From a phage: a DNA stretch of 64,000 nt. Under the pieces are notes generated by a model. The model was not told the origin of the DNA and did no database searches. It saw nothing but the letters and a program-made list of their open reading frames with translations. Position 1 is the stretch's first letter, and the number at the start of each line of letters is the position of its first letter. Made by a program: the position numbers and the translations under genes. Positions 2,699-42,172 of this stretch are shown here, one piece after another. The DNA lies in the NCBI GenBank assembly GCA_011911785.1, contig GCA_011911785.1_4084.1, one strand, 5' to 3'.

Positions 2699-3024
2699 AT
2701 AATAAAAGTATATACAATAAAATACCAGAAGGGTACGTTCCTGTACCTAAATCGGACAAAAGTAAAGAATTACAATTACTTCGTCAAGGAAGTATAACTG
2801 AAATAACATTGGGTGACAAAACGTTCCAAGTTCATGATCCAGTAAAAATAGAACAATTGATTAAGCTAGTCGAGAGGCATGAAGAACGTTTACATTCTGT
2901 GTCTAATGAGACAGCACAATTGAAAAGAAAGATTCAGTACATGGAAAACGAAATACGAACCTTAAGAAATTCTATTAATAAATTACAGGATCAAATAAAG
3001 AATGCAGGATTCAACCAATTCTAA
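2695..3024 (+). CDS. hypothetical coiled-coil protein (109 aa)
   Basis: ORF track; ATGA stop-start overlap with previous gene. Confidence 0.5.
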   Translation: MNNKSIYNKIPEGYVPVPKSDKSKELQLLRQGSITEITLGDKTFQVHDPVKIEQLIKLVERHEERLHSVSNETAQLKRKIQYMENEIRTLRNSINKLQDQIKNAGFNQF

Positions 3025-3640
3025 TCATTACAGAAAAGCTAGAACAGATATTGATATTGATTTTAAAGATAGTAAATCTGTCATAGCTCAATTGCCATGT
3101 GTAAGAAGTACTGAAAAGATTACAGAAGATGGATTGATTGCACATAATAGTGGTGTACACTTTGATAATATTCCAATCGATCCAATAACTGGTTTGGCGA
3201 GTATACAATATAAAGAAGCCGAAAGATTGGGGTATCAGAAGGTTGATATCCTTTCACAATCGGCTTACATGTATGTTCGTGACAGAGAACATTTAAAGGA
3301 ACTGATGAACAGAGAGCCTAATTGGGATCTGTTGTTAGAACCAGAAATTGTTGATCATTTATCACAAATTAAAAAGCATATAACTTTACTTAATGTTTGG
3401 AAACCCCGTTCTATAGACGAGTTGGCTATGTTTATTGCTATGATTCGCCCAGGGAAACGAAATTGTCAAAGTATGAACTCTTGGTCTGAAGTAGAATCGG
3501 TTATTTGGGATTATAGTAGTATTGGGCTAGATAGTGAGGGCAAAAAATTGCGTTATTTTAAAAAACCACATGCTTATGCTTATAGCTTAATGATTGTGGT
3601 ACAATTAAACGCATTGGTTGAACATCTTACTTCTTCTTAA
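3002..3640 (+). CDS. hypothetical protein (212 aa)
   Basis: ORF track. Confidence 0.5.
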   Translation: MQDSTNSNHYRKARTDIDIDFKDSKSVIAQLPCVRSTEKITEDGLIAHNSGVHFDNIPIDPITGLASIQYKEAERLGYQKVDILSQSAYMYVRDREHLKELMNREPNWDLLLEPEIVDHLSQIKKHITLLNVWKPRSIDELAMFIAMIRPGKRNCQSMNSWSEVESVIWDYSSIGLDSEGKKLRYFKKPHAYAYSLMIVVQLNALVEHLTSS

Positions 3641-31738: not shown

Positions 31739-34126
31739 ATGGCATCTTTTACCCCGTATTGGGATTTAAAGGCTGATACTCAATATATTCAAGAAGGAAC
31801 TGACATTCTTATTAGATTAAGTATCAATAAAGAAGGAACTACAGGTGATAGCTATACACTAAGTCAAAATGAATACTTAGAGATGATTTTCACTATACAA
31901 TGTTTAGATAATGTTGGTAATGTTTTTAATGCTGAAAACCACTATTCATTATTAGTTGGAAATGACCCGAACAATCTAGTACCATTATCTGATGGAACAA
32001 CTGGAAATAAGTTTTTAAATGGAAGACATAAGTGTAGAATACAAAAGAATAATTTTTATCTTCCAAGTACAATAATCAGTGAAGATGTGTATTATTTAAA
32101 ACTACATTGTAAGCGTGATGGTACATTTAATAACGTGGAAAGTGTTGTTTTCAATTTACAGGCTATTAACGTCATGCATTTTGGGAACATTTCACCATCA
32201 GGATTATTGCGTGCCAACAAAGCAACTGTTACATTTGATAGTAAAGAAATATGGGTAACACCTGGATTAACTGTTACCGATGATGAACAGTTATATTGTA
32301 TTGGAGACATAGAGTATGGTTCAGATAGTACTTTATTCATTCAAGGCTTCGGTCGTAAACGTCCGTATCAACCAAATGTAGATAGTGCCGTTGACACCAG
32401 TCCACGTGTATTCTTCCCCGCTTATCGCTTGCTTGATATAACAGAACAAGATTTACCGTCTCGACATATTACAGGTAAAGCAGCTTACTTACGACCAGAT
32501 GACTTAGCGTTTCCGGTTGACGGAATTAATAAAGAAGTTAAAGTTAATATAGTTGATGATACTGGTAAGATTACAAAAAGTGGGCTTTCTTTTAACCCGA
32601 ATGGACAATTCTTACAAACATTTTTACATGAATCAGAACCAACTGACGTTTACTTTAAGGTAGAAATCGTAGATATTCTCAAAACCTACAATACACTTTC
32701 TGAACGTTTTGCTATTGATCAGCGTTTTAAAGCATATCAAATGTGGGTATGTCCAAACGATGTATCTACTATTGCTGCTACTGATGAAAAACCAAAACCT
32801 AATCATTTATATCAATTAAGAGATAACGTTGTGTATCCATATGTTATTAGTGGTGAATATGATGAAGGTATGATCAAACCATTATTCAAAAGTTCTGATT
32901 GGAATGATTTGGGTTATTATGATGTGTCATTGGGTAGTGGTATTATTGGTGAAAAGCGTATGTTCCGTTTCTTGGAAAACGCCGCTGAAGGTTCATCTAT
33001 ACAAATAATTACCGATCCTGACTTGGGAACTATACACGTTGGAGAATACTTCGGTCATACAGTATATCCTCAAATACTTACTAATAGTAAGAATCAAGTA
33101 TCTTGTGTATTAGTGGGCGGTGATGACATAACAAAATATGGATTGGATCTTACACCTGATGGGTATCTTGTAGGTACAGCATATGCATTAAGCACTGATT
33201 TTAGTGCCAATGATGATATAAAATTGAATTTCCAGGTTGAAGTTTATGACACTGAAGGTAGTAGTGTTATTGGTGATTTCAAATTAAAAATCGTTCGCGG
33301 GTTGGGGCAAAATCATTTGAGTTCACATATTGTTCCATCTGTTCAATTTGAACGTGAATGGTTTAAATGTATCAGTACTCAAACATTTGCTAATTATGGT
33401 TTCCATCGTCAATCTGATGACAGATATGGTTTACAGAAAGTTCCTAGGATTCTTCTAAAAGAAAACTTTGTTAGTCAAAACTATAATTACACTAACTTAA
33501 ATGATTTGAAAAAAGTTCTCCGTGAGAATATAATAGATCCATCAGGGGCGACAATCCCTAACGGTAAATTCAAGATGGTTATTGGTAATTACAAAATCAT
33601 GTCAGCACTTGACAACAAAGGAAACCTTCTGTATGATTTAGTGTTTAGAGAGTTACATCCAGAAGGAACACAAGTTGCTGTTTCTACCAATCCCAGAATC
33701 TACACAAACGTAGATAACGGACTACTTGCCGAATTATTTGGTTTACGCCAGAATATTTACAAGGCTGTTGGTGAAGACACAACCAACTTGGTAAAAGACC
33801 CAACAGACTTAGTTAACCGTGGGTTATATGTTGATGCTATACCAGGTATAAGTGATGAGATGATTGATACTGTTCCACGCTTCATGAATCATCCATATAT
33901 TGAAGATGGGATTGAGAAAAAATTTATGCCTATCATTCCAGTAGCATACTGCTTACCTGGTAAGGGTGAAGCGTTTTTCCAAATGTTATTACAAAACAAC
34001 GAACATAGTTCAATGGTTAGTACTGAATTTGAAGTAACAGCAGTTGAATTCGGATACTTTGCTCAAGATCATGAGCGTTATGTACATGATACATTTAGAA
34101 TTGCATTACAGAATGATATAATATAA
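31739..34126 (+). CDS. large hypothetical protein (795 aa)
   Basis: ORF track; GGAG RBS; long uninterrupted frame. Confidence 0.6.
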   Translation: MASFTPYWDLKADTQYIQEGTDILIRLSINKEGTTGDSYTLSQNEYLEMIFTIQCLDNVGNVFNAENHYSLLVGNDPNNLVPLSDGTTGNKFLNGRHKCRIQKNNFYLPSTIISEDVYYLKLHCKRDGTFNNVESVVFNLQAINVMHFGNISPSGLLRANKATVTFDSKEIWVTPGLTVTDDEQLYCIGDIEYGSDSTLFIQGFGRKRPYQPNVDSAVDTSPRVFFPAYRLLDITEQDLPSRHITGKAAYLRPDDLAFPVDGINKEVKVNIVDDTGKITKSGLSFNPNGQFLQTFLHESEPTDVYFKVEIVDILKTYNTLSERFAIDQRFKAYQMWVCPNDVSTIAATDEKPKPNHLYQLRDNVVYPYVISGEYDEGMIKPLFKSSDWNDLGYYDVSLGSGIIGEKRMFRFLENAAEGSSIQIITDPDLGTIHVGEYFGHTVYPQILTNSKNQVSCVLVGGDDITKYGLDLTPDGYLVGTAYALSTDFSANDDIKLNFQVEVYDTEGSSVIGDFKLKIVRGLGQNHLSSHIVPSVQFEREWFKCISTQTFANYGFHRQSDDRYGLQKVPRILLKENFVSQNYNYTNLNDLKKVLRENIIDPSGATIPNGKFKMVIGNYKIMSALDNKGNLLYDLVFRELHPEGTQVAVSTNPRIYTNVDNGLLAELFGLRQNIYKAVGEDTTNLVKDPTDLVNRGLYVDAIPGISDEMIDTVPRFMNHPYIEDGIEKKFMPIIPVAYCLPGKGEAFFQMLLQNNEHSSMVSTEFEVTAVEFGYFAQDHERYVHDTFRIALQNDII

Positions 34127-34139
34127 TAGGAGAAAAAAT

Positions 34140-34448
34140 ATGTTCAATCCATTTTTTGACCCTTCTGGTATGAGTGATAAAGAACTCCAACAAAAGATTA
34201 ATGATCAAAGTTTACGTATTAGTTCCGCTCGTGCCGCTGGCTTGAGTGATTCTATCATTGGTAACATGCAAATAGTACTGAATCAGTGCTATGAAGAAAT
34301 GACTTTACGACAAGGTAGAAAAGAGAAAGACACATACGAAGATACTGATCCATGTATTTTTGATATGAATTCTTATCTATCAGATGAAGAGGATAGTAAA
34401 AAGAAAAATGAAAGTTCAAGGAAACAGATATATAAGTCCCAATGGTGA
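34140..34448 (+). CDS. hypothetical protein (102 aa)
   Basis: ORF track; AGGAG RBS. Confidence 0.5.
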   Translation: MFNPFFDPSGMSDKELQQKINDQSLRISSARAAGLSDSIIGNMQIVLNQCYEEMTLRQGRKEKDTYEDTDPCIFDMNSYLSDEEDSKKKNESSRKQIYKSQW

Positions 34449-34926
34449 TGTTAAATGTAATTTGAATGCTGTAGTTTATGCTATGAATTGTGGGTCTGAT
34501 ATACAGTACTTACAATTACAAGATATAGATGAACAAGAGCGTTTGAAGTTTAACGATAACTGTAAAAAATTTGGACTAGAGCAACGTATGTTGGATTATA
34601 CAATTGACCATGATAGTAATCATGAGTTATGGCGTTATGATCCAATGTATGACAATATCAATCTAAGAGAATTCTTTTTACAAAAGTGTTCCACACCTGA
34701 AGCAAGACAGCGTGTGGAATACGAAATTGATTTATACGAACAATATAATATGACAAAGCTATTGCGTTGTATGATATGGTTGGTAGATTATATGGAAGAG
34801 CACAACATCTTCTGGGGCTTAGGGCGTGGTAGTTCTGTAGCCTCATATTGTCTGTTTCTGATTGGTTTGCATATGGTTGACTCATTGAAGTATGATCTCG
34901 ATGTGAACGAATTTCTGAAATGGTAA
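34408..34926 (+). CDS. hypothetical protein (about 172 aa; start uncertain)
   Basis: ORF track 34384-34926; in-frame ATGs at 34384 and 34408 both overlap the previous gene. Confidence 0.45.
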   Translation: MKVQGNRYISPNGDVKCNLNAVVYAMNCGSDIQYLQLQDIDEQERLKFNDNCKKFGLEQRMLDYTIDHDSNHELWRYDPMYDNINLREFFLQKCSTPEARQRVEYEIDLYEQYNMTKLLRCMIWLVDYMEEHNIFWGLGRGSSVASYCLFLIGLHMVDSLKYDLDVNEFLKW

Positions 34927-34935
34927 CGAAACATG

Positions 34936-34944
34936 TGATATAAT
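34936..34944 (+). promoter_or_regulatory. extended -10 promoter element (TGaTATAAT)
   Basis: TGATATAAT about 40 nt upstream of ATG 34985. Confidence 0.4.
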
Positions 34945-34984
34945 GGTTGTTGTGACGTTATAGCACTTAGAAAAGGGATTTTAT

Positions 34985-35347
34985 ATGTCAAAACATACTA
35001 CTTATCGTGGCACTATCATTGATATGGATATGCTAAAATATCAGAACCAACATCAGGTTGCATTGGGTAATGCTAAACTAAATGCTCGTGGTGATAAAAT
35101 TGGTTCTGGTGGAACTGTAATTAAAACTCGTGAAGAACTACTTCAAGAGAAAGAACGTGAAATGCAAATTCCTGACTATATTCCAGAACATCAGGCACAA
35201 AGCACTGATTATTCTGATGATGGTTGGGATGATGCAAGCTTTGAAGTTGAGCATGTCGTTGTACAAAACGAAGAAACAGTTGATCCTTCAGTTGCACCTG
35301 AAGAGAAGAAAGCACCACGCAGAGCAAAAACTAAAGATCAGGAGTAA
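34985..35347 (+). CDS. hypothetical protein (120 aa)
   Basis: ORF track; AAGGGA RBS. Confidence 0.5.
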   Translation: MSKHTTYRGTIIDMDMLKYQNQHQVALGNAKLNARGDKIGSGGTVIKTREELLQEKEREMQIPDYIPEHQAQSTDYSDDGWDDASFEVEHVVVQNEETVDPSVAPEEKKAPRRAKTKDQE

Positions 35348-35352
35348 TACAA

Positions 35353-35676
35353 ATGTCTAAAGTTATGACAGCATGTAAGGGAAAAGTACTGGTTACTGAT
35401 TTAGAACATGGCGAACGAAAAACTGCTGGTGGAATTGTTTTAACAAATGATGACGGTAAAATTCGTGGTATTCGTTGTCGTTGGGCTAAAGTTTATTCAG
35501 TTGGTGAAGATATAACTGATATTAAAGAAGGTCAATGGATTCTTATTGACCACGGTCGCTGGTCCAGAACTATTGAGGTTGATGGTGTTCAATTAAACTT
35601 AGTTGATTACCCAGCCGCAGTATCTTTGGTTTCCGATGAAGACCCACGTACTTCAGTACAAACATTTGGACGTTAA
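35353..35676 (+). CDS. GroES-like co-chaperonin (functional analogue of T4 gp31)
   Basis: KTAGGIVLT matches the GroES mobile-loop-proximal motif KSAGGIVLT; 107 aa, GroES-like length. Confidence 0.55.
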   Translation: MSKVMTACKGKVLVTDLEHGERKTAGGIVLTNDDGKIRGIRCRWAKVYSVGEDITDIKEGQWILIDHGRWSRTIEVDGVQLNLVDYPAAVSLVSDEDPRTSVQTFGR

Positions 35677-35688
35677 TTATAAAAGTAA

Positions 35689-35718
35689 GCTCGGAATATA
35701 TATTCTGGGCTTTTTATT
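35689..35718 (+). terminator. intrinsic terminator
   Basis: GCTCGGAATAT/ATATTCTGGGC hairpin (with G-U pairs) followed by TTTTTATTT. Confidence 0.6.
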
Positions 35719-35730
35719 TGGTTATATAAT

Positions 35731-36000
35731 ATGATTACAGATAATGATAAGTTTAGCTTTTCGGATGTTCAACTTGTTTCAAAGAATAATAGGTTTTTGT
35801 TTGAAGATAGGAAGAATACCAAATATGTTTATGAAGTATCTCACGATGTATTTAAGCACTTACTTGTAGTTGCTGCAAATGCAAAAGCACGTGGCATTGA
35901 CAATAAAGTAAATTCTTTTGACTATCTCTTTAATCAGTTGGAGATGACAGAAGACCTATTCACCGCACTACTATACCATCTATCAGATTGGACTCACTAA
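35731..36000 (+). CDS. hypothetical protein (89 aa)
   Basis: ORF track; no clear RBS. Confidence 0.4.
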   Translation: MITDNDKFSFSDVQLVSKNNRFLFEDRKNTKYVYEVSHDVFKHLLVVAANAKARGIDNKVNSFDYLFNQLEMTEDLFTALLYHLSDWTH

Positions 36001-36019
36001 TTTACATGAGGAATAATAA

Positions 36020-36973
36020 ATGACTACACTATGGACTGAAAAATATCGCCCACAAACCCTAGAAGATTACGTTTTCAAAAATGATGCTCTTCGTAAAAAG
36101 ATGGAAGAATGGATTTGTACTGGCAATATTCCACATATTGGATTCTTTGGTCCCGCTGGTACAGGAAAAACTTCAGCGATTAAAGTACTACTAAATGGAC
36201 TTGAAGCTAATGGTCACCTGGACCCAAGTGATGTAACAACTCTAAACATGTCAGATGAGGGTATTGATGCTGTGCGTGATAAGATTGACGCAGCCGCAAA
36301 ACTATCATGTTTTGGACGTTATCGTGTATTTGTTCTGGAAGAAATGGAACAGATGAACCACAAAGCACAAGGTAGCCTGAAGCGTGTAATGGAAGATTAT
36401 CACGAGAATGCTCGTTTTATTCTAACCAGTAATGAGCCACATAAAATTTTGAAACCTATTATTTCTCGTGTGCAAGTAATTACAATCGAGAAGCATGATA
36501 TGGAACAGTTTATGACCCGTATCATCAACGTACTGTTAGCTGAGGGTGTAGATTTATCATCCGAAGAAAGTATTGATCAAGTGCAGCAATACATCAATGC
36601 ATCGTACCCTGACTTCCGCAAAACATTAAACGTATTGCAGAGTTCAGTAGTTGATGGTAAACTAGTAAAACTAGAAGACAGTATTGAGAATTCTGCTGGG
36701 TATCGCACGGCAATCGTTGATGCATTAAAGGCGGGAAACATTCGTCAGATGCGTGAGCAGATTGTTCAAAATATCCCTGATGACGAAATGGATGCATTTT
36801 TCTCGTATCTGTATCGTAATGCAGAAATGTTCAGTACTGATGAAATCACACTAATGAAAATCAAGGTTAAAATCCGTGATGCAGTTGTCAAACAATCAAC
36901 AGTTTCTGATCGTGAGATGAACCTGAGTGCATTACTATGTGAAATTGACTTGATTTGTTCAGGAAATATGTAA
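36020..36973 (+). CDS. clamp-loader AAA+ ATPase subunit (RFC-like; T4 gp44 equivalent)
   Basis: N-terminal WTEKYRP; Walker A FFGPAGTGKTS; PDFRKTLNVLQS block; 317 aa. Confidence 0.85.
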   Translation: MTTLWTEKYRPQTLEDYVFKNDALRKKMEEWICTGNIPHIGFFGPAGTGKTSAIKVLLNGLEANGHLDPSDVTTLNMSDEGIDAVRDKIDAAAKLSCFGRYRVFVLEEMEQMNHKAQGSLKRVMEDYHENARFILTSNEPHKILKPIISRVQVITIEKHDMEQFMTRIINVLLAEGVDLSSEESIDQVQQYINASYPDFRKTLNVLQSSVVDGKLVKLEDSIENSAGYRTAIVDALKAGNIRQMREQIVQNIPDDEMDAFFSYLYRNAEMFSTDEITLMKIKVKIRDAVVKQSTVSDREMNLSALLCEIDLICSGNM

Positions 36974-37593
36974 TGAAACAACGTTGTGTAGTATGGGATT
37001 GTGATGAAGTGCTATTGGACCACATTGGTGGTCTATATAATTTTGTTAAAGAACATTATGATATTCATCCAGAAACACCATATCCAGAAAAATATGATTT
37101 GTGTCAGTGGTTGGGTGGAATTACTCAACCTGAAGTTCAAGAGATTCTAAAACACTTCAACCATCGTTCTTATGAGTTTGGTCTACTTGACCCAGTAGAA
37201 CATAACACGGTTGGAATTATGCAAGAATTACGTGATAAGTTCCCATATGATAAATTTGTAGTACTGACTAAATCTGGTACATTCGGTCACGGGGAAGTTC
37301 TCCGTAAGGTGAATCTCATTAATGTATTTGGTGAAGGTATTTTTGATGATATCATTATCATTGAAATGTATGAATCCAAAAAATCAGCACTAATGAAATT
37401 AAAAGCTCAATATGACGTTAAATTTTTGATTGACGATTATATTAAAAATATAGAAACGGCTATAGAGTTGGATATACCTGCTGTTATGATGTGTGCGTGT
37501 CATAACCATGAATACAAGCATAACAACGGCTTTGATTATGTTAATAATTGGAGCGAACTTCGTCTAAAAATTTACGAACTAATGAAAAAATAA
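36973..37593 (+). CDS. HAD-superfamily phosphatase, probable 5'(3')-deoxyribonucleotidase
   Basis: HAD motif I VVWDCDEVLLD, motif II VVLTKS, motif III Lys, motif IV FLIDDY; TAATG stop-start overlap with the clamp-loader gene. Confidence 0.5.
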   Translation: MKQRCVVWDCDEVLLDHIGGLYNFVKEHYDIHPETPYPEKYDLCQWLGGITQPEVQEILKHFNHRSYEFGLLDPVEHNTVGIMQELRDKFPYDKFVVLTKSGTFGHGEVLRKVNLINVFGEGIFDDIIIIEMYESKKSALMKLKAQYDVKFLIDDYIKNIETAIELDIPAVMMCACHNHEYKHNNGFDYVNNWSELRLKIYELMKK

Positions 37594-37598
37594 CAATA

Positions 37599-37627
37599 GG
37601 GGAACTTGATTCCCCTTTCATTGTTTT
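37599..37627 (+). terminator. intrinsic terminator
   Basis: GGGGAA-CTTGA-TTCCCC hairpin followed by TTTCATTGTTTT. Confidence 0.55.
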
Positions 37628-37676
37628 CAAAGTAGTAAATAATATAAATGTTCAAGTTTTTAAGGGAATAAAAAAC

Positions 37677-38252
37677 ATGGAAGATATGAATACAACAGAC
37701 AATGCTATCCAGCAATTATATGATAATTCTGGAATGTTAGACATTCTTCTGGCGGTTGAAAAATATTTTGATGACAATGATTTATATGCCTATACTGGTG
37801 TAATTGAAGGTGAACTAGTTGAGGGACCAAATGTTACTAAGTACTGGTGTACTGTTACATTCAAATATTATAGAGAAAACTTTCCAGATCCAACAGCATT
37901 CACAGTTTTAGAAAAACATGGAACTAAAGTTCAAGTTAAAGCTGATTACGAAATACGACCAATTGCGAAGCCTCGTAGTCGTAATGATATGAAAACACAA
38001 GCAACTCAACATGGATCAGTGAATGTACCAAGAACCGAAAGAGTACCAGTACTACTAGTTCGTTTTCAAATACCGCGAAATCTAATTAATCCAGAAAGCT
38101 TTGATGAATACAAACTAATGGCATCTGAATTTAATAGTAATCCAATGAACTTAGATCAAAATTCACCTGATATGAGTATGGAAGATGAGCAGGATGTTCA
38201 AGAATTAGATGCAGAATTTGGTGCACCTGATGAACAGAAAGGAGGAATGTAA
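37677..38252 (+). CDS. hypothetical protein (191 aa)
   Basis: ATG 37677 with AAGGGAA RBS; ORF-track start 37548 lies inside the previous gene and terminator. Confidence 0.5.
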   Translation: MEDMNTTDNAIQQLYDNSGMLDILLAVEKYFDDNDLYAYTGVIEGELVEGPNVTKYWCTVTFKYYRENFPDPTAFTVLEKHGTKVQVKADYEIRPIAKPRSRNDMKTQATQHGSVNVPRTERVPVLLVRFQIPRNLINPESFDEYKLMASEFNSNPMNLDQNSPDMSMEDEQDVQELDAEFGAPDEQKGGM

Positions 38253-38932
38253 TGTCTAAACAATTAAATGAACAGGGATTGCGTCCTGAAGTGCTTAAAG
38301 ACCTGATTTACCCTATTATCAGTGTTGATGAATATACGCCTAAAATTGAAGATGGTAATATCGTTGTTATGTTTCAGGTGTTGAATAATTTTGATGCTGC
38401 ATATGATTTGTCCTCTTTCATTGAGAAATCACCAATCACTGCGGTAGATACTGAAGCTGCTGAAACACCTAACCTAGATGGTAGATATCAAGTATTTGTT
38501 GAAATGGAACGTAATGCAGAGTTTCCAGAAAAATTACTAACTCTAATTAAGACTATTGAAAACATTTGTCCAAATCCAGGATGGAAAATACAGCTTTATG
38601 GTGTTAATGATCCAATTGATGTAGACTTTGATGAAGTTCAGCAACGTGTTGAATTGGGAACACCAGATGCACTAAGTGAGTTTTTGGATTATGCTGGCGT
38701 AACTGTACTCAAAGAGGGTAATAACCTAAAACTACAAACCGTGTATGGTGATTTATGTTATAGTACTGGTAGTGGTTTTGCATCTGAGGAATACATCAAA
38801 TCTATGCTGAAAACTGAAACCAAATTAGATACATCAAGACTTAGTTCTATATTAGGTGAAAACTATACAGTACTACGTAGTGGTAATCAGTATATAGTTG
38901 GTAGAGATGGGAAGTATCTGGTGCTAAGATGA
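38252..38932 (+). CDS. hypothetical protein (226 aa)
   Basis: ORF track; strong RBS GGAGGAA. Confidence 0.55.
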   Translation: MSKQLNEQGLRPEVLKDLIYPIISVDEYTPKIEDGNIVVMFQVLNNFDAAYDLSSFIEKSPITAVDTEAAETPNLDGRYQVFVEMERNAEFPEKLLTLIKTIENICPNPGWKIQLYGVNDPIDVDFDEVQQRVELGTPDALSEFLDYAGVTVLKEGNNLKLQTVYGDLCYSTGSGFASEEYIKSMLKTETKLDTSRLSSILGENYTVLRSGNQYIVGRDGKYLVLR

Positions 38933-39747
38933 GAATTTTAAATATGTTGAAATCTCTACATGAAAGTACTAAATTGGTTCAGGATGAAAAGTATCGTCGC
39001 AGTACTACAAAAGATTTAGCTTGTAGAATGTATATGCGTAGATTTGAGATTTCAAGGATTGGTAAGGGATGGGATGACATTAAACGTGATGATATCGATC
39101 CCGATGCAATCTTTAAAGCATATATGGCACGAAAGGTTTTCATTAATGAAAAAACATTTTATATTGACAGTGATAGAGAACGTGAAGTACAATTCACAAA
39201 AGGATTGTGGAAAATCTGGTGCATTGAGACATTTGGTGAGTTGTTACCTGAACCACCAGTACCAGAGACGTACAAAGAACTAAAGAACATCTTTGATAAT
39301 GAACATATACATATGAATTTTTCATTATATGAGACTGTCAATGAGGCATTGTTCTATGGTGAACTACACGGTCATAATGAATATTTTAGTTCTATGGTAG
39401 AGTTTGATTTGTTTTGTCATTTACCTGGGGTACAAAGCTGGACATCTGATCAGTACAGAGCCAGTAAGGTTGACAAACGTAAATTTTCAGCACAGAGATT
39501 TGTACAAGCAGCAATGGGTATGTATAAACTGGACTATCTGAACTGTCCAGAACCATATAAACATTTTTGGAAAGAAAGAGCACAGAAATGTTTAAACTAT
39601 GCTATCATACGTCTTATGGAAGTTTACATTTTAAAATTTAGGAATGCAACGGTGTATGATATGCCGGAGCCACCTAAAGATGAGAAGTACCCACCAGTTA
39701 AGGGTTTCAACTGGTACAGAGAGAAGAACAACAAAGGGACGTGCTAA
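38929..39747 (+). CDS. hypothetical protein (272 aa)
   Basis: ORF track; ATGA overlap. Confidence 0.5.
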   Translation: MRILNMLKSLHESTKLVQDEKYRRSTTKDLACRMYMRRFEISRIGKGWDDIKRDDIDPDAIFKAYMARKVFINEKTFYIDSDREREVQFTKGLWKIWCIETFGELLPEPPVPETYKELKNIFDNEHIHMNFSLYETVNEALFYGELHGHNEYFSSMVEFDLFCHLPGVQSWTSDQYRASKVDKRKFSAQRFVQAAMGMYKLDYLNCPEPYKHFWKERAQKCLNYAIIRLMEVYILKFRNATVYDMPEPPKDEKYPPVKGFNWYREKNNKGTC

Positions 39748-39762
39748 GGTGCGTCCTTTTTT
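39734..39762 (+). terminator. intrinsic terminator overlapping stop codon
   Basis: AAGGGACG-(10 nt)-CGTCCTTT stem followed by TTTTTTC. Confidence 0.5.
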
Positions 39763-39772
39763 CATTTAGGTG

Positions 39773-39801
39773 TTGACAATACTAATCAAGTTAGATAGAA
39801 T
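39773..39801 (+). promoter_or_regulatory. sigma70-like promoter (TTGACA-N17-TAGAAT)
   Basis: TTGACA at 39773-78 and TAGAAT at 39796-801. Confidence 0.55.
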
Positions 39802-39840
39802 AGCATTATTGATTTACTATTAATTAAAAAGAGGCTGATG

Positions 39841-40959
39841 ATGAAAGGAAAATATTTTTTCATTGAGAACAAACAAGAAATTGAAATCCAAGAGTTTGAT
39901 TACCAGTTTGTGTTGAATTCATTACTGAAAAAGTATGATCGTCGCGACAATAAAAAGTACTTTTATAATGTAATCGTAAAACGTACTTATGATTCAATGG
40001 GAAATCCCGAATTTGATGTTCGTAATTTAGAACTATCAAAAATTTACTATTCAAACACACGTTTGAATATGTTAGATCTCATGAAAGATGAAATTCATTT
40101 TAAAAATATTCAGATTCGTGATTTACCAGTGCCCCCACTTGAGCGTGAATACGAAGCATGGAAAGAAGGTCGTCTTAAACCACGTCCAGAACTTGCAGTG
40201 GTTGAAGTGCCAGCACCAATTGTTCTGACTAAAACACCAATTGATCCAGAAGATGAACGCATTGCGGATATCGAACAATGGATGGAATTTCCTGAAACTA
40301 TTAAAAAGGATTCTGTAAAAGTACTGGATTGGTTCGTAAACTTACCAGTATGTGCACAGGAAGTTGGTGTGAAGATTCAAAAAATTTCAGAGCGTCAATT
40401 GGACCTTAATGATGCATTACATAAGCATAGTGATTATGTTAGAACATTAATGAATAACTTAACCACTGCACTTGAATCGTTATTCCCATTGAAACCAACA
40501 TTTACACAAAAACTGTTTGGTAAAGCTGATATAAAGGTTCAACAGGCCGATTTACCTAAAGTAATGAAAGCATTGAATGATGCAGTGAAATATGATACGA
40601 ATAAGTTTAGTGGTTTAACTTCATTGTTTAATGAAATTCGAACTGAAGTTCGTGATATTAAAGATGAATTAGAATACGGAAAAATTGGGTGTGAGTATGC
40701 TATTCGTCGTTTGGATGATGCATTTGAATATGAACTGACTCTTGAACGTATCATGAAAATGAGCATTACCGCCGCAATGACTGAAGCTAGTATCGTTAAT
40801 GTGAGTAAACAGTATCAGATTGATATGAATAGAATGGTAGATATCCAAACTATTACTATTCCGTTGATTATCAATCGTTTACAGACACAAGTTGGAAAAG
40901 CAGTAGACGCAGATACCGCCGCGATCATTCGCAACTTAGCTTACGGCGATAAAGAGTAA
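39841..40959 (+). CDS. hypothetical protein (372 aa)
   Basis: ORF track; GAGG RBS 6 nt upstream of second ATG. Confidence 0.55.
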   Translation: MKGKYFFIENKQEIEIQEFDYQFVLNSLLKKYDRRDNKKYFYNVIVKRTYDSMGNPEFDVRNLELSKIYYSNTRLNMLDLMKDEIHFKNIQIRDLPVPPLEREYEAWKEGRLKPRPELAVVEVPAPIVLTKTPIDPEDERIADIEQWMEFPETIKKDSVKVLDWFVNLPVCAQEVGVKIQKISERQLDLNDALHKHSDYVRTLMNNLTTALESLFPLKPTFTQKLFGKADIKVQQADLPKVMKALNDAVKYDTNKFSGLTSLFNEIRTEVRDIKDELEYGKIGCEYAIRRLDDAFEYELTLERIMKMSITAAMTEASIVNVSKQYQIDMNRMVDIQTITIPLIINRLQTQVGKAVDADTAAIIRNLAYGDKE

Positions 40960-41016: not shown

Positions 41017-41044
41017 TATCTTAAATTAAATGAGGAATAACCTA

Positions 41045-42172
41045 ATGTCCGAGAAAGAAATCAATCCAAAAAAAGCAACTACCAAAACTTCTAAGCGTAC
41101 TACGACCAAAACCAAAGGTAATACTTTTGATGCGAGTGATATTTTCGACCAACAGTCTAAGACGTTACCAGTACTGAAAGATACAAAAGGTAACACTATG
41201 TCTTTAACTGTTCAGAACATTAACACCATTGGAACAACTGCTGGTGCAGGTGTCGGACGACTGGCTGATGAAATCATGTCAAAAGTGAACGTCACTGATG
41301 ACAATACTGAATTTGGTAAATCAATTACCACAATTTTATCACTAACCCGTGCTGTTGATATTGACAGTCTACAAGATGATAAATCAATTGTAGGTTGGGT
41401 CAAAAAACTCTTTGTCAATGCAAAACAGAAAGTTGGTGATCAGTACAAGAATAGTAAAGAGCAGATTGATGAAATCATGAACACACTCCAGGTTGGTATC
41501 AATCGCCAACATAGTGAATGTGAGTGGTTGGATACTGCTTACAATGAGAATAAAGCCTATCTATTTGAATTACGCGATACGCTGGTTGAATTGGAACAAG
41601 TTACAAAAACTCAAGATGCTAAACTGGAAGAAATGCAAGCGAACCCTGATGTGGATTCTTTCGCAATCCAAGAGCAGAAGATGATTTGTGAAGCATTGTC
41701 TAAACAGGAAGATAAGATTCGCCGTCTTATCATGATGTGTGAGCTTAGTGGCCCTCGTCTGATGAGTATGAAGAAAGTGAATCTAAACACTGTATCTAAA
41801 TTTGAAGATCTGAAATCTGTTGTCATCCCTGCATGGAAATCACAACTAGCAGAACAATTGATTTCTGAACGCCAACGCAAAGATAATGAGTTGGGTAATT
41901 TGATTGATAATGAAACTAACCGTTTACTTGAAGTGAACTCCAAAATGGTAGCAACTAATATGTTAGATGCTGCTAAAGCTAATAACCGTGGTATTGTGGA
42001 TATTAAAACATTGCGTAACGTACACAAAACAATGATCGATAGCATCGAAGCAGTACTGATTGAAGAGAAGAAAGGTAAGGAAGAACGTGAACGTGCTAAA
42101 CATGAAATTGCACAGTTGTCCTACGAACTTGAAGAAACTCTTCGCGAAATTGCTGACAAAGCTAACAAGTAA
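41045..42172 (+). CDS. hypothetical coiled-coil protein (375 aa)
   Basis: ATG 41045 with GAGGAA RBS; largely alpha-helical/coiled-coil composition. Confidence 0.55.
   Translation: MSEKEINPKKATTKTSKRTTTKTKGNTFDASDIFDQQSKTLPVLKDTKGNTMSLTVQNINTIGTTAGAGVGRLADEIMSKVNVTDDNTEFGKSITTILSLTRAVDIDSLQDDKSIVGWVKKLFVNAKQKVGDQYKNSKEQIDEIMNTLQVGINRQHSECEWLDTAYNENKAYLFELRDTLVELEQVTKTQDAKLEEMQANPDVDSFAIQEQKMICEALSKQEDKIRRLIMMCELSGPRLMSMKKVNLNTVSKFEDLKSVVIPAWKSQLAEQLISERQRKDNELGNLIDNETNRLLEVNSKMVATNMLDAAKANNRGIVDIKTLRNVHKTMIDSIEAVLIEEKKGKEERERAKHEIAQLSYELEETLREIADKANK

What the first reader, a model, noticed from the sequence alone, without database searches (positions are those of the whole stretch)
36973..37593. 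HAD-family nucleotidase directly after the clamp-loader ATPase gene
In T4-type genomes the large clamp-loader subunit gene is normally followed by the small subunit gene. Here the next gene overlaps the gp44-like stop (TAATG) and encodes a protein with all four HAD motifs (DCDEV, TKS, K, DD), followed by its own terminator. Either the clamp-loader small subunit is encoded elsewhere (37677-38252 is the right size but has no recognisable similarity) or the module is organised differently.
Basis: partly seen in the sequence, partly recalled or inferred. Interest (0 to 1): 0.4.

Follow-up and report, generated by a model that had tools for sequence, protein, structure and literature searches.

The report
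Phage phosphatase gene beside clamp loader
The gene after the clamp-loader gene of this giant E. coli phage encodes a small phosphatase, most likely acting on DNA building blocks and related to the uncharacterised T4 gene 30.2; it is a real but ordinary, already annotated gene and not a hidden clamp-loader subunit.

Summary
The window is about 99% identical to Escherichia phage A4, an Asteriusvirus (RaK2-like jumbo phage). ORF 36973-37593 (206 aa) overlaps the stop of the gp44-like clamp-loader gene (TAATG). It carries all four HAD motifs and is followed by a hairpin terminator.

It is a HAD phosphatase of the NT5C / 5'(3')-deoxyribonucleotidase type. A confident AlphaFold model (pLDDT 95.5) best matches 3bwv and human mdN/cdN. 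A family profile hits mdN at E 2e-7, and 30 of 56 relatives hit PF06941. It is a clear homologue of T4 gp30.2 (hhalign 99.7%, same PHROG 420), a widespread T4-type gene of unknown function.

It is not a divergent gp62 (hhalign 0.24%). The neighbour 37677-38252 shows no sequence or profile similarity to gp62. The next gene, 38252-38932, which I tested as a possible clamp, has a confident model that matches no clamp.

No gp62 or gp45 was found anywhere in the genome. The RaK2 (2013) and CBB (2017) papers had already reported this. GenBank already labels the gene HAD-like or NT5C. The substrate and the role are untested. Low novelty, low interest.

The parts
35687..35712 (+). Hairpin terminator that closes the preceding unit (after the GroES-like gene). 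It marks the upstream limit of the small unit containing the clamp-loader gene.
   Evidence: Terminator scan, 11-pair stem plus T-run.
35731..36000 (+). 89-aa ORF of unknown function (A4_87), 20 nt upstream of the clamp-loader gene and inside the same terminator-bounded unit.
   Evidence: ORF list. It hits phrog_16539, unknown function. It is present in 121Q, RaK2 and GAP32 but absent from the divergent relatives L010 and L011.
36020..36973 (+). gp44-like AAA+ clamp-loader ATPase (317 aa). Walker A GPAGTGKT starts at residue 44, sensor-1 TSN at 136 and the SRC-type arginine finger (here SRV) at 149.
   Evidence: phrog_168 at 1.6e-78; PF13177, PF00004 and Gp44_lid. About 30% identity to T4-like gp44, and only one copy in phage A4. 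Motifs.
36961..36966 (+). AGGAAA Shine-Dalgarno-like element for the phosphatase gene, inside the 3' end of the clamp-loader gene.
   Evidence: Read directly from the sequence.
36973..37593 (+). HAD-superfamily phosphatase (206 aa) of the NT5C-like / T4 gp30.2 family (phrog_420). Motif I is D9-x-D11, motif II T99, motif III K136 (plus R111) and motif IV D154-D155. A helical C1-type cap spans residues about 17-89.
37598..37616 (+). Intrinsic-terminator-like hairpin (AGGGGAAC..GTTCCCCT-type stem, then TTCATTGTTT) that ends the clamp-loader/phosphatase unit.
   Evidence: Terminator scan. The region holds 9 such sites against 2.4 expected from shuffles.
37643..37650 (+). TATAAATG, a T4-late-promoter-like motif 27 nt upstream of the next gene. 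It suggests that the downstream genes form a separate late unit.
   Evidence: Motif scan. ATAAATA/TATAAATA-type late motifs were reported before structural genes in CBB and GAP32 (PMC5259590).
37677..38252 (+). 191-aa protein annotated as virion structural, with an acidic C-terminal tail. No similarity to gp62 was found.
   Evidence: phrog_12928 at 3.6e-78. Profile against PDB found nothing relevant. hhalign against a gp62 alignment gives probability 0.07%.
38252..38932 (+). 226-aa protein annotated as virion structural. I tested it as a candidate sliding clamp and rejected it.
   Evidence: phrog_13138. hhalign against gp45 gives only 8.6%. The AF2 model has pLDDT 90. Foldseek against PDB gives no hit at E<=0.001 and no clamp fold.

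Best explanation
ORF 36973-37593 encodes a soluble, Mg2+-dependent phosphatase of the haloacid-dehalogenase (HAD) superfamily. It belongs to the branch that contains the 5'(3')-deoxyribonucleotidases (NT5C, PF06941), and it is the RaK2-like-phage counterpart of phage T4 gp30.2.

Inferred mechanism, from the established chemistry of the family: Asp9 attacks the phosphate of a small phosphomonoester to form an aspartyl-phosphate intermediate. Asp11 acts as general acid/base. Thr99, Arg111 and Lys136 hold the phosphate. Asp154/Asp155 hold the metal. A helical cap (residues about 17-89) closes over the substrate. The cap keeps aromatic or ring residues at positions that align with the nucleoside-pocket residues of human mdN. 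The most likely substrates are therefore (deoxy)nucleoside monophosphates, giving nucleoside plus phosphate.

The gene is co-transcribed with the gp44-like clamp-loader gene and probably translationally coupled to it (TAATG overlap, own SD, shared terminator). It would therefore be made during DNA replication.

Its likely role is to trim or edit the dNMP pool alongside the phage's own thymidine kinase, dNMP kinase, thymidylate synthase, dCMP deaminases and ribonucleotide reductases. That would be a nucleotidase/kinase substrate cycle, or removal of unwanted dNMPs.

It is not a clamp-loader subunit. The adjacency is lineage-specific gene order.

What is shown: the gene, the motifs, family membership, the fold and the operon layout. 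What is inferred: the substrate, the timing of expression and the physiological role.
For: - Gene, overlap and terminator.
- Catalytic residues invariant or near-invariant across 40 orthologues and 56 distant relatives.
- 15 of 40 orthologues and 30 of 56 relatives hit PF06941 NT5C (best 1.5e-13); many also hit PF00702 and PF13419.
- The wide family profile hits 3bwv (putative 5'(3')-deoxyribonucleotidase) at 8.7e-8 and human mdN at 1.9e-7 over the full length. T99 aligns with the TS motif, R111 with the Lys of 'YEKY', K136 with 'RDK' and D155 with 'IDD'.
- In the same alignment, H17 (W in most relatives), Y41 and F62 align with mdN F49, W76 and W96. The roles of those mdN residues come from my own knowledge of the mdN structures.
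- The AF2 model has pLDDT 95.5 and pTM 0.90.
- Foldseek against PDB puts 3bwv and mdN/cdN on top (E 3e-10 to 1e-6, TM about 0.7).
- Foldseek against BFVD puts the orthologue of the RaK2-like phage CBB first, then the Dinoroseobacter phage R5C homologue, ~280-310-aa proteins of Escherichia phage EcS1 and Yersinia phage TG1 (the size of T4 gp30.2), and then phage '5' nucleotidases'.
- T4 gp30.2 homology: hhalign probability 99.7%, E 2.9e-26; both hit phrog_420.
- gp30.2 homologues occur in 1453 phage records.
- A phage NT5C-family enzyme, PBS1 Dtm, has been shown to be a dTMP phosphatase: PMC12697855.
- The phage encodes TK, dNMP kinase, ThyA, two dCMP deaminases, DHFR and class I and class III RNRs.
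- There is only one such HAD gene in the genome.
Against: - The protein on its own does not reach any Pfam model (no hit at E<=0.1). NT5C membership therefore rests on relatives, profiles and fold.
- No member of the gp30.2 / phrog_420 family has a published activity in the library searched.
- Generic HAD sugar-phosphate and phosphoglycolate phosphatases also match the fold, with lower scores. Some records call the protein 'phosphoglycolate phosphatase' or 'FMN phosphatase YigB'.
- Gene context in distant relatives is inconsistent. It lies next to ligase in T4, next to a helicase and QueD in phage R5C, and near a dCMP deaminase in one metagenomic contig.
- A dNMP phosphatase seems wasteful in a phage that invests heavily in dNTP synthesis.
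- RaK2 DNA carries only methylation, so there is no obvious base to exclude (PMC3622015).
Confidence: 0.6

Rival explanations
1. It is a HAD phosphatase, but its substrate is a non-nucleotide small phosphoester such as a sugar phosphate, phosphoglycolate or a cofactor phosphate. Possible roles are in a phage metabolic or cell-surface pathway, or in making a Ter-type nucleoside-like signal together with the nearby TelA-like protein.
For: - The fold also matches predicted phosphatases, phosphoglycolate phosphatases and beta-phosphoglucomutase-type HADs (3mc1, 2hi0, 2nyv).
- Source annotations include 'phosphoglycolate phosphatase' and 'FMN phosphatase YigB'.
- HAD phosphatases of T4-like phages act on arabinose bisphosphate in DNA-hypermodification pathways (PMC13326640).
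- Ter systems use HAD phosphoesterases, and a TelA-like gene lies at 41030-42172 (PMC7824862).
Against: - The best sequence-profile and fold matches are consistently NT5C deoxyribonucleotidases over the full length.
- Residues aligned with the nucleoside-pocket positions of mdN are aromatic or ring residues.
- The TelA-like gene is separated from this gene by a terminator, a late-type promoter motif and four other genes.
- No sugar-activation or glycosyltransferase genes are adjacent.
Confidence: 0.22
2. It is a polynucleotide 3'-phosphatase or DNA/RNA end-healing enzyme, like the HAD phosphatase domain of T4 Pnkp. It would work with the replication and ligation machinery.
For: - Weak hit to phrog_415, labelled 'polynucleotide kinase' (E 0.0041). 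A Vibrio-phage homologue hits it at 1.8e-6.
- The T4 homologue 30.2 lies two genes from DNA ligase, and several T4-like homologues abut ligase.
- Here the gene sits in a replication-gene unit.
Against: - The model has a closed helical C1 cap, as in the small-molecule NT5C enzymes. From my own knowledge, Pnkp-type phosphatase domains act on polynucleotide ends and lack such a cap.
- The phage already encodes a separate 3'-phosphatase/5'-kinase (A4_432) and an RNA ligase.
- phrog_415 also contains T5 Dmp, a dNMP phosphatase, so that weak hit does not point specifically to end-healing.
Confidence: 0.08
3. The protein has taken over the gp62 slot. It binds the gp44-like ATPase as the fifth (non-ATPase) clamp-loader subunit, or it tethers nucleotide-pool editing to the replisome.
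For: - It occupies exactly the position, and has the translational-coupling geometry, that gene 62 has after gene 44 in T4-like phages.
- Its size (206 aa) is similar to gp62 (134-187 aa).
- The tight linkage to the gp44-like gene (overlap to 11 nt) is kept in all relatives down to 35% identity.
- No gp62 or gp45 homologue is detectable anywhere in the genome, as published for RaK2 and CBB.
Against: - There is no similarity to gp62 (hhalign probability 0.24%).
- All catalytic residues are under strict conservation, which fits an enzyme and not a degenerate scaffold.
- The same family exists in T4 itself alongside a normal gp62, at another locus.
- The whole region is syntenic across the clade, so conserved adjacency carries little weight.
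- No interaction prediction could be run.
Confidence: 0.04

Closest known systems
Phage T4 gp30.2 (NP_049815; PHROG family phrog_420, 'unknown function')
   Same: Clear homologue: hhalign probability 99.7%, E 2.9e-26 over residues 2-195 against 1-197. Both hit phrog_420. It has the same N-terminal DxDxV motif and the same conserved SK and DD motifs. The family is widespread in T4-type phages (1453 records).
   Different: T4 gp30.2 is 278 aa, with a C-terminal extension of about 80 residues that is absent here. In T4 the gene lies next to DNA ligase (30 - 30.1 - 30.2), not next to gene 44. Neither protein has a tested function.
5'(3')-deoxyribonucleotidases, NT5C family (PF06941): human mitochondrial mdN and cytosolic cdN, and S. 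epidermidis 3bwv
   Same: HAD core plus helical cap. These are the best fold matches (TM 0.64-0.72) and the best profile matches (E 9e-8 to 5e-4, full length). The catalytic Asp-x-Asp, Thr, Lys and Asp-Asp residues align.
   Different: Only 15-20% identity. This protein alone does not reach the Pfam NT5C threshold. Arg111 replaces the mdN lysine of 'YEKY', and His17 replaces Phe49. dNMP specificity is untested.
Bacillus phage PBS1 Dtm (dTMP phosphatase, PF06941; PMC12697855)
   Same: A phage-encoded NT5C-family enzyme shown to hydrolyse dTMP (less so dUMP) in order to edit the nucleotide pool. It is the nearest characterised precedent for a phage role.
   Different: PBS1 replaces T with U in its DNA. 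This phage encodes thymidylate synthase and thymidine kinase, and RaK2 DNA is only methylated, so excluding dTMP is unlikely to be the purpose. The two sequences were not compared directly.
Phage T5 Dmp (deoxynucleoside-5'-monophosphatase, T5.001; phrog_415)
   Same: A phage HAD-motif phosphatase (DLDGT, T, SK, DD) known to dephosphorylate dNMPs (record annotation). phrog_415 is the second-best PHROG hit of the target (E 0.0041).
   Different: There is no significant homology (hhalign probability 4.6%). Dmp is a pre-early gene used together with host-DNA degradation, which is a different genomic and temporal context.
T4 gp62, clamp-loader small subunit
   Same: Only the gene position (directly after gene 44, tightly coupled) and the approximate size.
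   Different: There is no sequence or profile similarity. The target has an enzymatic HAD fold, whereas the literature describes gp62 as a helical small subunit (PMC7824862).

Membership tests
HAD (haloacid dehalogenase-like) phosphatase superfamily | Motif I DxDx(T/V) at the end of strand 1, with the nucleophile and the general acid/base Asp | tested here: met
   D9-C-D11-E-V13. D9 and D11 are near-invariant (>=90%) in 40 orthologues and invariant in the 56 distant relatives.
HAD (haloacid dehalogenase-like) phosphatase superfamily | Motif II Ser/Thr, motif III Lys/Arg, motif IV DD/ED acidic pair | tested here: met
   T99, K136 and D154-D155 are invariant in the orthologues. K136 and D155 are invariant family-wide, and the position of D154 is E or D. 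They align with the TS, RDK and IDD motifs of mdN.
HAD (haloacid dehalogenase-like) phosphatase superfamily | Rossmann-like alpha/beta core with a cap inserted after motif I | tested here: met
   AF2 model pLDDT 95.5, with core strands at 4-8, 94-100, 126-130, 148-154 and 170-173 and cap helices at 17-89. There are 139 PDB matches at E<=0.001, and those listed are almost all HAD-fold proteins.
HAD (haloacid dehalogenase-like) phosphatase superfamily | Mg2+-dependent phosphoryl-transfer activity through an aspartyl-phosphate intermediate | not testable with these tools
   Requires enzyme assays.
NT5C 5'(3')-deoxyribonucleotidase family (Pfam PF06941) | The sequence reaches the Pfam NT5C model | tested here: inconclusive
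   The protein itself gives no hit at E<=0.1. However, 15 of 40 orthologues and 30 of 56 relatives hit NT5C (best 1.5e-13), and the family profile hits mdN at 1.9e-7 and 3bwv at 8.7e-8.
NT5C 5'(3')-deoxyribonucleotidase family (Pfam PF06941) | NT5C-type fold (core plus helical cap), closest to solved deoxyribonucleotidases | tested here: met
   The top Foldseek PDB hits are 3bwv and mdN/cdN structures (1q92, 4mum, 2jao, 2i7d), at E 3e-10 to 1e-6 and TM 0.64-0.72.
NT5C 5'(3')-deoxyribonucleotidase family (Pfam PF06941) | Preference for (deoxy)nucleoside monophosphate substrates | not testable with these tools
   The only indirect evidence is that H17/W, Y41 and F62 align with mdN F49, W76 and W96 (the residue roles are from my own knowledge).
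T4 gp30.2 family (phrog_420) | Significant match to the family profile and to T4 gp30.2 itself | tested here: met
   phrog_420 at E 2.3e-30 for the target and 7.4e-94 for T4 30.2. hhalign probability 99.7%, E 2.9e-26. The GAP32 record note already says 'similar to gp30.2'.
T4 gp30.2 family (phrog_420) | Same domain architecture and locus as T4 gp30.2 | tested here: not met
   The target lacks the C-terminal part of T4 gp30.2, about 80 residues (206 against 278 aa; the alignment ends at T4 residue 197). The locus differs: after gene 44 here, and after 30/30.1 in T4. Many family members are about 190-210 aa, like the target.
T4 gp62 clamp-loader small subunit | Sequence or profile similarity to gp62 | tested here: not met
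   hhalign of the 40-member family against a four-member gp62 alignment gives probability 0.24%. A gp62 HMM finds nothing credible among the A4 ORFs.
T4 gp62 clamp-loader small subunit | Gene immediately downstream of gene 44 and translationally coupled to it | tested here: met
   TAATG overlap. The same position is held by gene 62 in RB27 and D480. Position alone does not define the family.
T4 gp62 clamp-loader small subunit | Forms a 4:1 complex with gp44 and binds the clamp | not testable with these tools
   No multimer prediction or experiment was available.
T5 Dmp-type dNMP phosphatase (phrog_415) | Significant match to the family or to T5 Dmp | tested here: not met
   phrog_415 at E 0.0041 with no stretch passing on its own. 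hhalign against T5 Dmp gives probability 4.6%.

The most novel reading that the evidence does not exclude
In RaK2-like jumbo phages, which have a gp44-like ATPase but no detectable gp62 or gp45, the gp30.2-type phosphatase that sits in the translationally coupled 'gene 62 slot' may be physically part of the clamp-loader or replisome assembly. It could act either as a non-homologous replacement for the fifth subunit or as a tethered dNMP-pool editor at the fork, in the spirit of the T4 dNTP-synthetase complex.
Probability: 0.04. Interest if true: 0.65.

Novelty: already known. Interest (0 to 1): 0.15.

Why it matters
As it stands this is an annotation-level result. The gene is already labelled 'HAD-like domain protein' in phage A4 and 'NT5C 5' nucleotidase', '5'-3' deoxyribonucleotidase' or 'phosphoglycolate phosphatase' in relatives. 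The GAP32 record already notes the similarity to T4 gp30.2.

Two modest points remain of interest.

1. The gp30.2 / phrog_420 family is conserved in more than 1400 phage genomes, including T4, yet has no tested function. A simple enzymology experiment on any member would annotate all of them and would say how T4-type phages edit their dNMP pools.

2. RaK2-like phages keep a gp44-type clamp loader with intact ATPase motifs but have no recognisable clamp or fifth subunit. That gap has been known since 2013.

Tried and rejected
1. Pfam on the single protein gave no hit. phmmer against PDB gave only E 0.33. Family profiles were needed.

2. Homology to T5 Dmp is not significant (hhalign 4.6%), although both proteins carry HAD motifs.

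3. A second NT5C-like paralogue was sought, because the CBB paper names CBB_380 as a deoxyribonucleotidase. None was found in the whole A4 genome with the family HMM.

4. gp45 and gp62 were sought genome-wide. HMMs from four T4-like phages each gave nothing credible among the A4 ORFs searched (best E 0.029 and 0.22). hhalign of both alignments against 470 size-filtered ORF/profile pairs gave a best probability of 3.2%. A PHROG scan of ten conserved hypothetical proteins from the replication region found only clade-specific families of unknown function, plus the second Pol III alpha fragment.

5. 37677-38252 as gp62: profile against PDB found nothing and hhalign gave 0.07%.

6. 38252-38932 as the missing sliding clamp. 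The lead was its size (226 aa against 228), its top rank in the gp45 hhalign scan and a shared 'AAYDLSSFIE / AIYDLNGFLG' stretch. It was rejected. The confident AF2 model has no PDB match at E<=0.001 and no clamp or PCNA hit.

7. Gene-neighbourhood inference for the wider family failed or was uninformative. The search for related loci with the wide alignment failed for lack of a conserved stretch. The contexts sampled were inconsistent.

8. The 89-aa ORF upstream of the gp44-like gene was considered as a conserved partner. It is absent from the divergent relatives L010 and L011.

9. The literature on gp30.2 was searched. Nothing was found in the library, and the T4 genome review is not held. 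One search was wasted on a loose term setting.
Full report
**Identity of the window.** Bases 34000-40000 match Escherichia phage A4 (ON286972.1; Asteriusvirus, a RaK2-like jumbo phage of 355.5 kb) at 99.3% over their full length. They match some fifty other RaK2-like phages (121Q, PBECO4, phAPEC6 and others) at about 77%. The target protein is 100% identical to A4_89, which is annotated 'HAD-like domain protein'. The upstream protein is 99.7% identical to A4_88, 'sliding clamp loader subunit'. This is therefore not a T4-type genome in the narrow sense. It belongs to a distant T4 relative whose replication genes are scattered among virion genes.

**Check of the observation.** All elements are present.
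- ORF 36973-37593 encodes 206 aa. Its ATG overlaps the TAA of the 317-aa ORF 36020-36973 by one base (TAATG).
- An AGGA lies 8 nt upstream of the start.
- The orthologues start at the same Met, so the ATG at 36973 is the start, and the TTG at 36955 listed is not.
- The motifs are D9-C-D11-E-V, L-T99-K-S, K136 and D154-D155.
- A hairpin with a T-rich tail lies at 37598-37616.
- A T4-late-like TATAAATG at 37643-37650 precedes the next gene. This resembles the late motif reported before structural genes in CBB and GAP32.
- An upstream terminator at 35687-35712 bounds a small unit made of an 89-aa ORF, the gp44-like gene and the phosphatase gene.

**What the protein is.**
- On its own it hits no Pfam model, but it hits PHROG family phrog_420 ('unknown function') at 2.3e-30.
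- Forty orthologues from RaK2-like phages and metagenomes keep T99, K136, D154 and D155 invariant and D9 and D11 in all but an N-terminally truncated row. Of these, 15 hit PF06941 (NT5C) and 21 hit PF00702.
- An exhaustive HMMER search with the family profile finds 1635 cluster representatives at E<=1e-3, mostly stand-alone proteins of 190-215 aa.
- In a 56-member sample reaching down to 23% identity, D9, D11, R111, K136 and D155 are invariant. Thirty members hit NT5C, the best at 1.5e-13.
- That wide profile matches solved deoxyribonucleotidases over their full length: 3bwv at 8.7e-8 and human mitochondrial mdN at 1.9e-7. The catalytic residues are in register. H17/W, Y41 and F62 fall opposite mdN F49, W76 and W96. 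From my own knowledge of the mdN structures, those residues line the nucleoside pocket.
- The AlphaFold2 model is very confident (pLDDT 95.5, pTM 0.90). It shows a Rossmann-like core with a helical cap inserted after motif I.
- Foldseek against PDB ranks 3bwv and the human and mouse mdN/cdN structures first (E 3e-10 to 1e-6, TM about 0.64-0.72), ahead of generic HAD phosphatases.
- Foldseek against viral models ranks the CBB orthologue first, then the Dinoroseobacter phage R5C homologue and ~280-310-aa proteins of Escherichia phage EcS1 and Yersinia phage TG1 (the size of T4 gp30.2), and then phage '5' nucleotidases'.

**The T4 counterpart.**
- A note in the GAP32 record points to T4 gp30.2. 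The wide family profile aligns with T4 gp30.2 at hhalign probability 99.7% (E 2.9e-26, residues 2-195 against 1-197). T4 gp30.2 hits the same PHROG at 7.4e-94.
- T4 gp30.2 is an uncharacterised 278-aa protein encoded two genes from DNA ligase. It has homologues in 1453 phage records, mostly labelled hypothetical and occasionally 'phosphatase'.
- T4 therefore has both a normal gp62 and a member of this family, at a different locus. This argues strongly that the gene here is an ordinary accessory enzyme that happens to lie after gene 44 in the RaK2-like lineage.

**Is it a disguised gp62?** No. The 40-member family compared with an alignment of gp62 from RB27, cyanophage S-MbCM6, Vibrio phage D480 and Ralstonia phage RSP15 gives hhalign probability 0.24%. 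The strict conservation of every catalytic residue fits an active enzyme. The only gp62-like properties are position and size. In T4-like phages the order 45-44-62-regA-43 holds, and gene 62 starts within a couple of bases of the stop of gene 44. The tight gp44-to-phosphatase spacing is kept across the clade: overlap in 121Q, 1 nt in RaK2, 8 nt in GAP32, and 11 and 2 nt in metagenomic relatives at 35-36% identity. The whole neighbourhood is syntenic in these genomes, however, so this says little about function.

**Where are the small subunit and the clamp?** I could not find them, in agreement with the RaK2 and CBB papers. Both report gp43, gp44, gp41, gp61 and gp32 homologues but no gp62 or gp45 (PMC3622015; PMC5259590).
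- The A4 annotation has no clamp or small subunit anywhere.
- HMMs of gp45 and gp62 found nothing credible among all A4 ORFs of at least 60 aa.
- hhalign scans gave at best 3% probability.
- Ten conserved hypothetical proteins of the replication region hit only clade-specific PHROGs.
It shows no similarity to gp62.
- The next gene (38252-38932, 226 aa, the size of gp45) ranked first in the gp45 scan and shares an 'AAYDLSSFIE'-like stretch with gp45. I spent the last structure prediction on it. The model is confident (pLDDT 90) but matches no sliding clamp and nothing in the PDB at E<=0.001. That lead is rejected.
- The gp44-like protein keeps Walker A, sensor-1 and an SRC-type arginine finger (SRV). 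It therefore looks like a working oligomeric ATPase whose partners remain unknown.

**Likely function and mechanism.**
- By family chemistry, the protein should hydrolyse a small phosphomonoester through an Asp9 phospho-intermediate, with a Mg2+ ion held by D154/D155.
- The fold, the profile matches and the conserved cap aromatics point to (deoxy)nucleoside monophosphates as substrates.
- There are precedents for phage enzymes of this kind. PBS1 Dtm is a PF06941 member shown to be a dTMP phosphatase (PMC12697855). T5 Dmp is a HAD-motif dNMP phosphatase, although it is not detectably homologous to the target.
- This phage carries a full set of dNTP-synthesis genes: thymidine kinase, dNMP kinase, thymidylate synthase, two dCMP deaminases, DHFR, aerobic and anaerobic ribonucleotide reductases and a MazG-like pyrophosphohydrolase. 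RaK2 DNA is only methylated.
- A nucleotidase/kinase substrate cycle, or removal of particular unwanted dNMPs during replication, is therefore more plausible than wholesale exclusion of one base. This role is inference.

**Rival explanations.**
- A non-nucleotide substrate remains a real alternative, because HAD specificity is hard to read from sequence.
- A polynucleotide 3'-phosphatase role is less likely. The model has a closed cap, and the phage has a separate Pnkp (A4_432).
- A link to the nearby TelA-like gene through a Ter-type signalling pathway (PMC7824862) is not supported by the transcription-unit layout.

**Novelty.** The gene, its HAD/NT5C character and the similarity to T4 gp30.2 are already in public annotations (PMC11895373). 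The missing gp62 and gp45 are already discussed in the literature. Two things are added here. First, a firm, multi-method placement of the protein in the NT5C-like gp30.2 family. Second, explicit negative tests of the gp62 idea and of the two neighbouring genes as small subunit and clamp (fold-tested for the 226-aa gene, profile-tested only for the 191-aa gene). The result is ordinary, so I score interest low.

Noticed in passing
window 34140-34448 and 34408-34926: A roughly 100-aa ORF overlaps the start of the 'minimal Pol III alpha' N-terminal fragment gene by exactly 41 nt, with the second gene in the +1 frame. The same 41-nt overlap, with both reading frames conserved, is present in 121Q, RaK2, GAP32 and two metagenomic relatives at 35-50% identity. 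It could be long-range translational coupling or a frameshift fusion. An A-rich run (AAAAAGAAAAATG) sits at the second start.
   Followed up: partly
window about 3002-3640 (+) and 34408-34926 (+): The phage-specific split 'minimal' DNA polymerase III alpha is encoded as two distant genes (phrog_11778 and phrog_11127/PF07733), alongside a family-B polymerase elsewhere in the genome. This matches the description by Iyer et al. 2021 (PMC7824862).
   Followed up: partly
window 38252-38932 (+): The 226-aa 'virion structural protein' (phrog_13138) gives a confident AF2 model (pLDDT 90) with no PDB match at E<=0.001. Only its N-terminal beta-alpha-beta-beta-alpha-beta part weakly resembles small ferredoxin-like domains (Rpb11, S6). 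This may be an undescribed fold or domain combination.
   Followed up: partly
window 37677-38252 (+): The 191-aa 'virion structural protein' has a conserved, strongly acidic C-terminal tail, ending in GGM in four of six relatives, after a conserved globular part. Its gene overlaps the next one (ATGTAATG), and it is preceded by a T4-late-like TATAAATG at 37643-37650.
   Followed up: no
window 35731-36000 (+): An 89-aa ORF lies 20 nt upstream of the gp44-like gene and inside the same terminator-bounded unit. It is conserved in 121Q, RaK2 and GAP32 but missing from the more divergent relatives L010 and L011. Its function is unknown.
   Followed up: partly
L014:4989-5591 (Dinoroseobacter phage R5C): A distant homologue of the phosphatase (28% identity, TM 0.86) sits between a DNA helicase gene and a QueD/QueC/GTP-cyclohydrolase/queuine tRNA-ribosyltransferase-like (DpdA-type) 7-deazaguanine cluster. 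This hints that some family members may serve DNA-modification nucleotide pathways.
   Followed up: no
window 41030-42172 (+): A stand-alone TelA-like (tellurite-resistance / Ter system) gene lies four genes downstream. It is conserved at this position in relatives (PF05816 in L010). Iyer et al. note stand-alone TelA in this phage group.
   Followed up: no
whole window compared with ON286972.1: The window is not identical to phage A4. It is 99.3% identical over 6 kb, and ORF coordinates shift by about +197 bp and back again between the left part of the window and the target region. It therefore comes from a distinct, closely related isolate or assembly.
   Followed up: no
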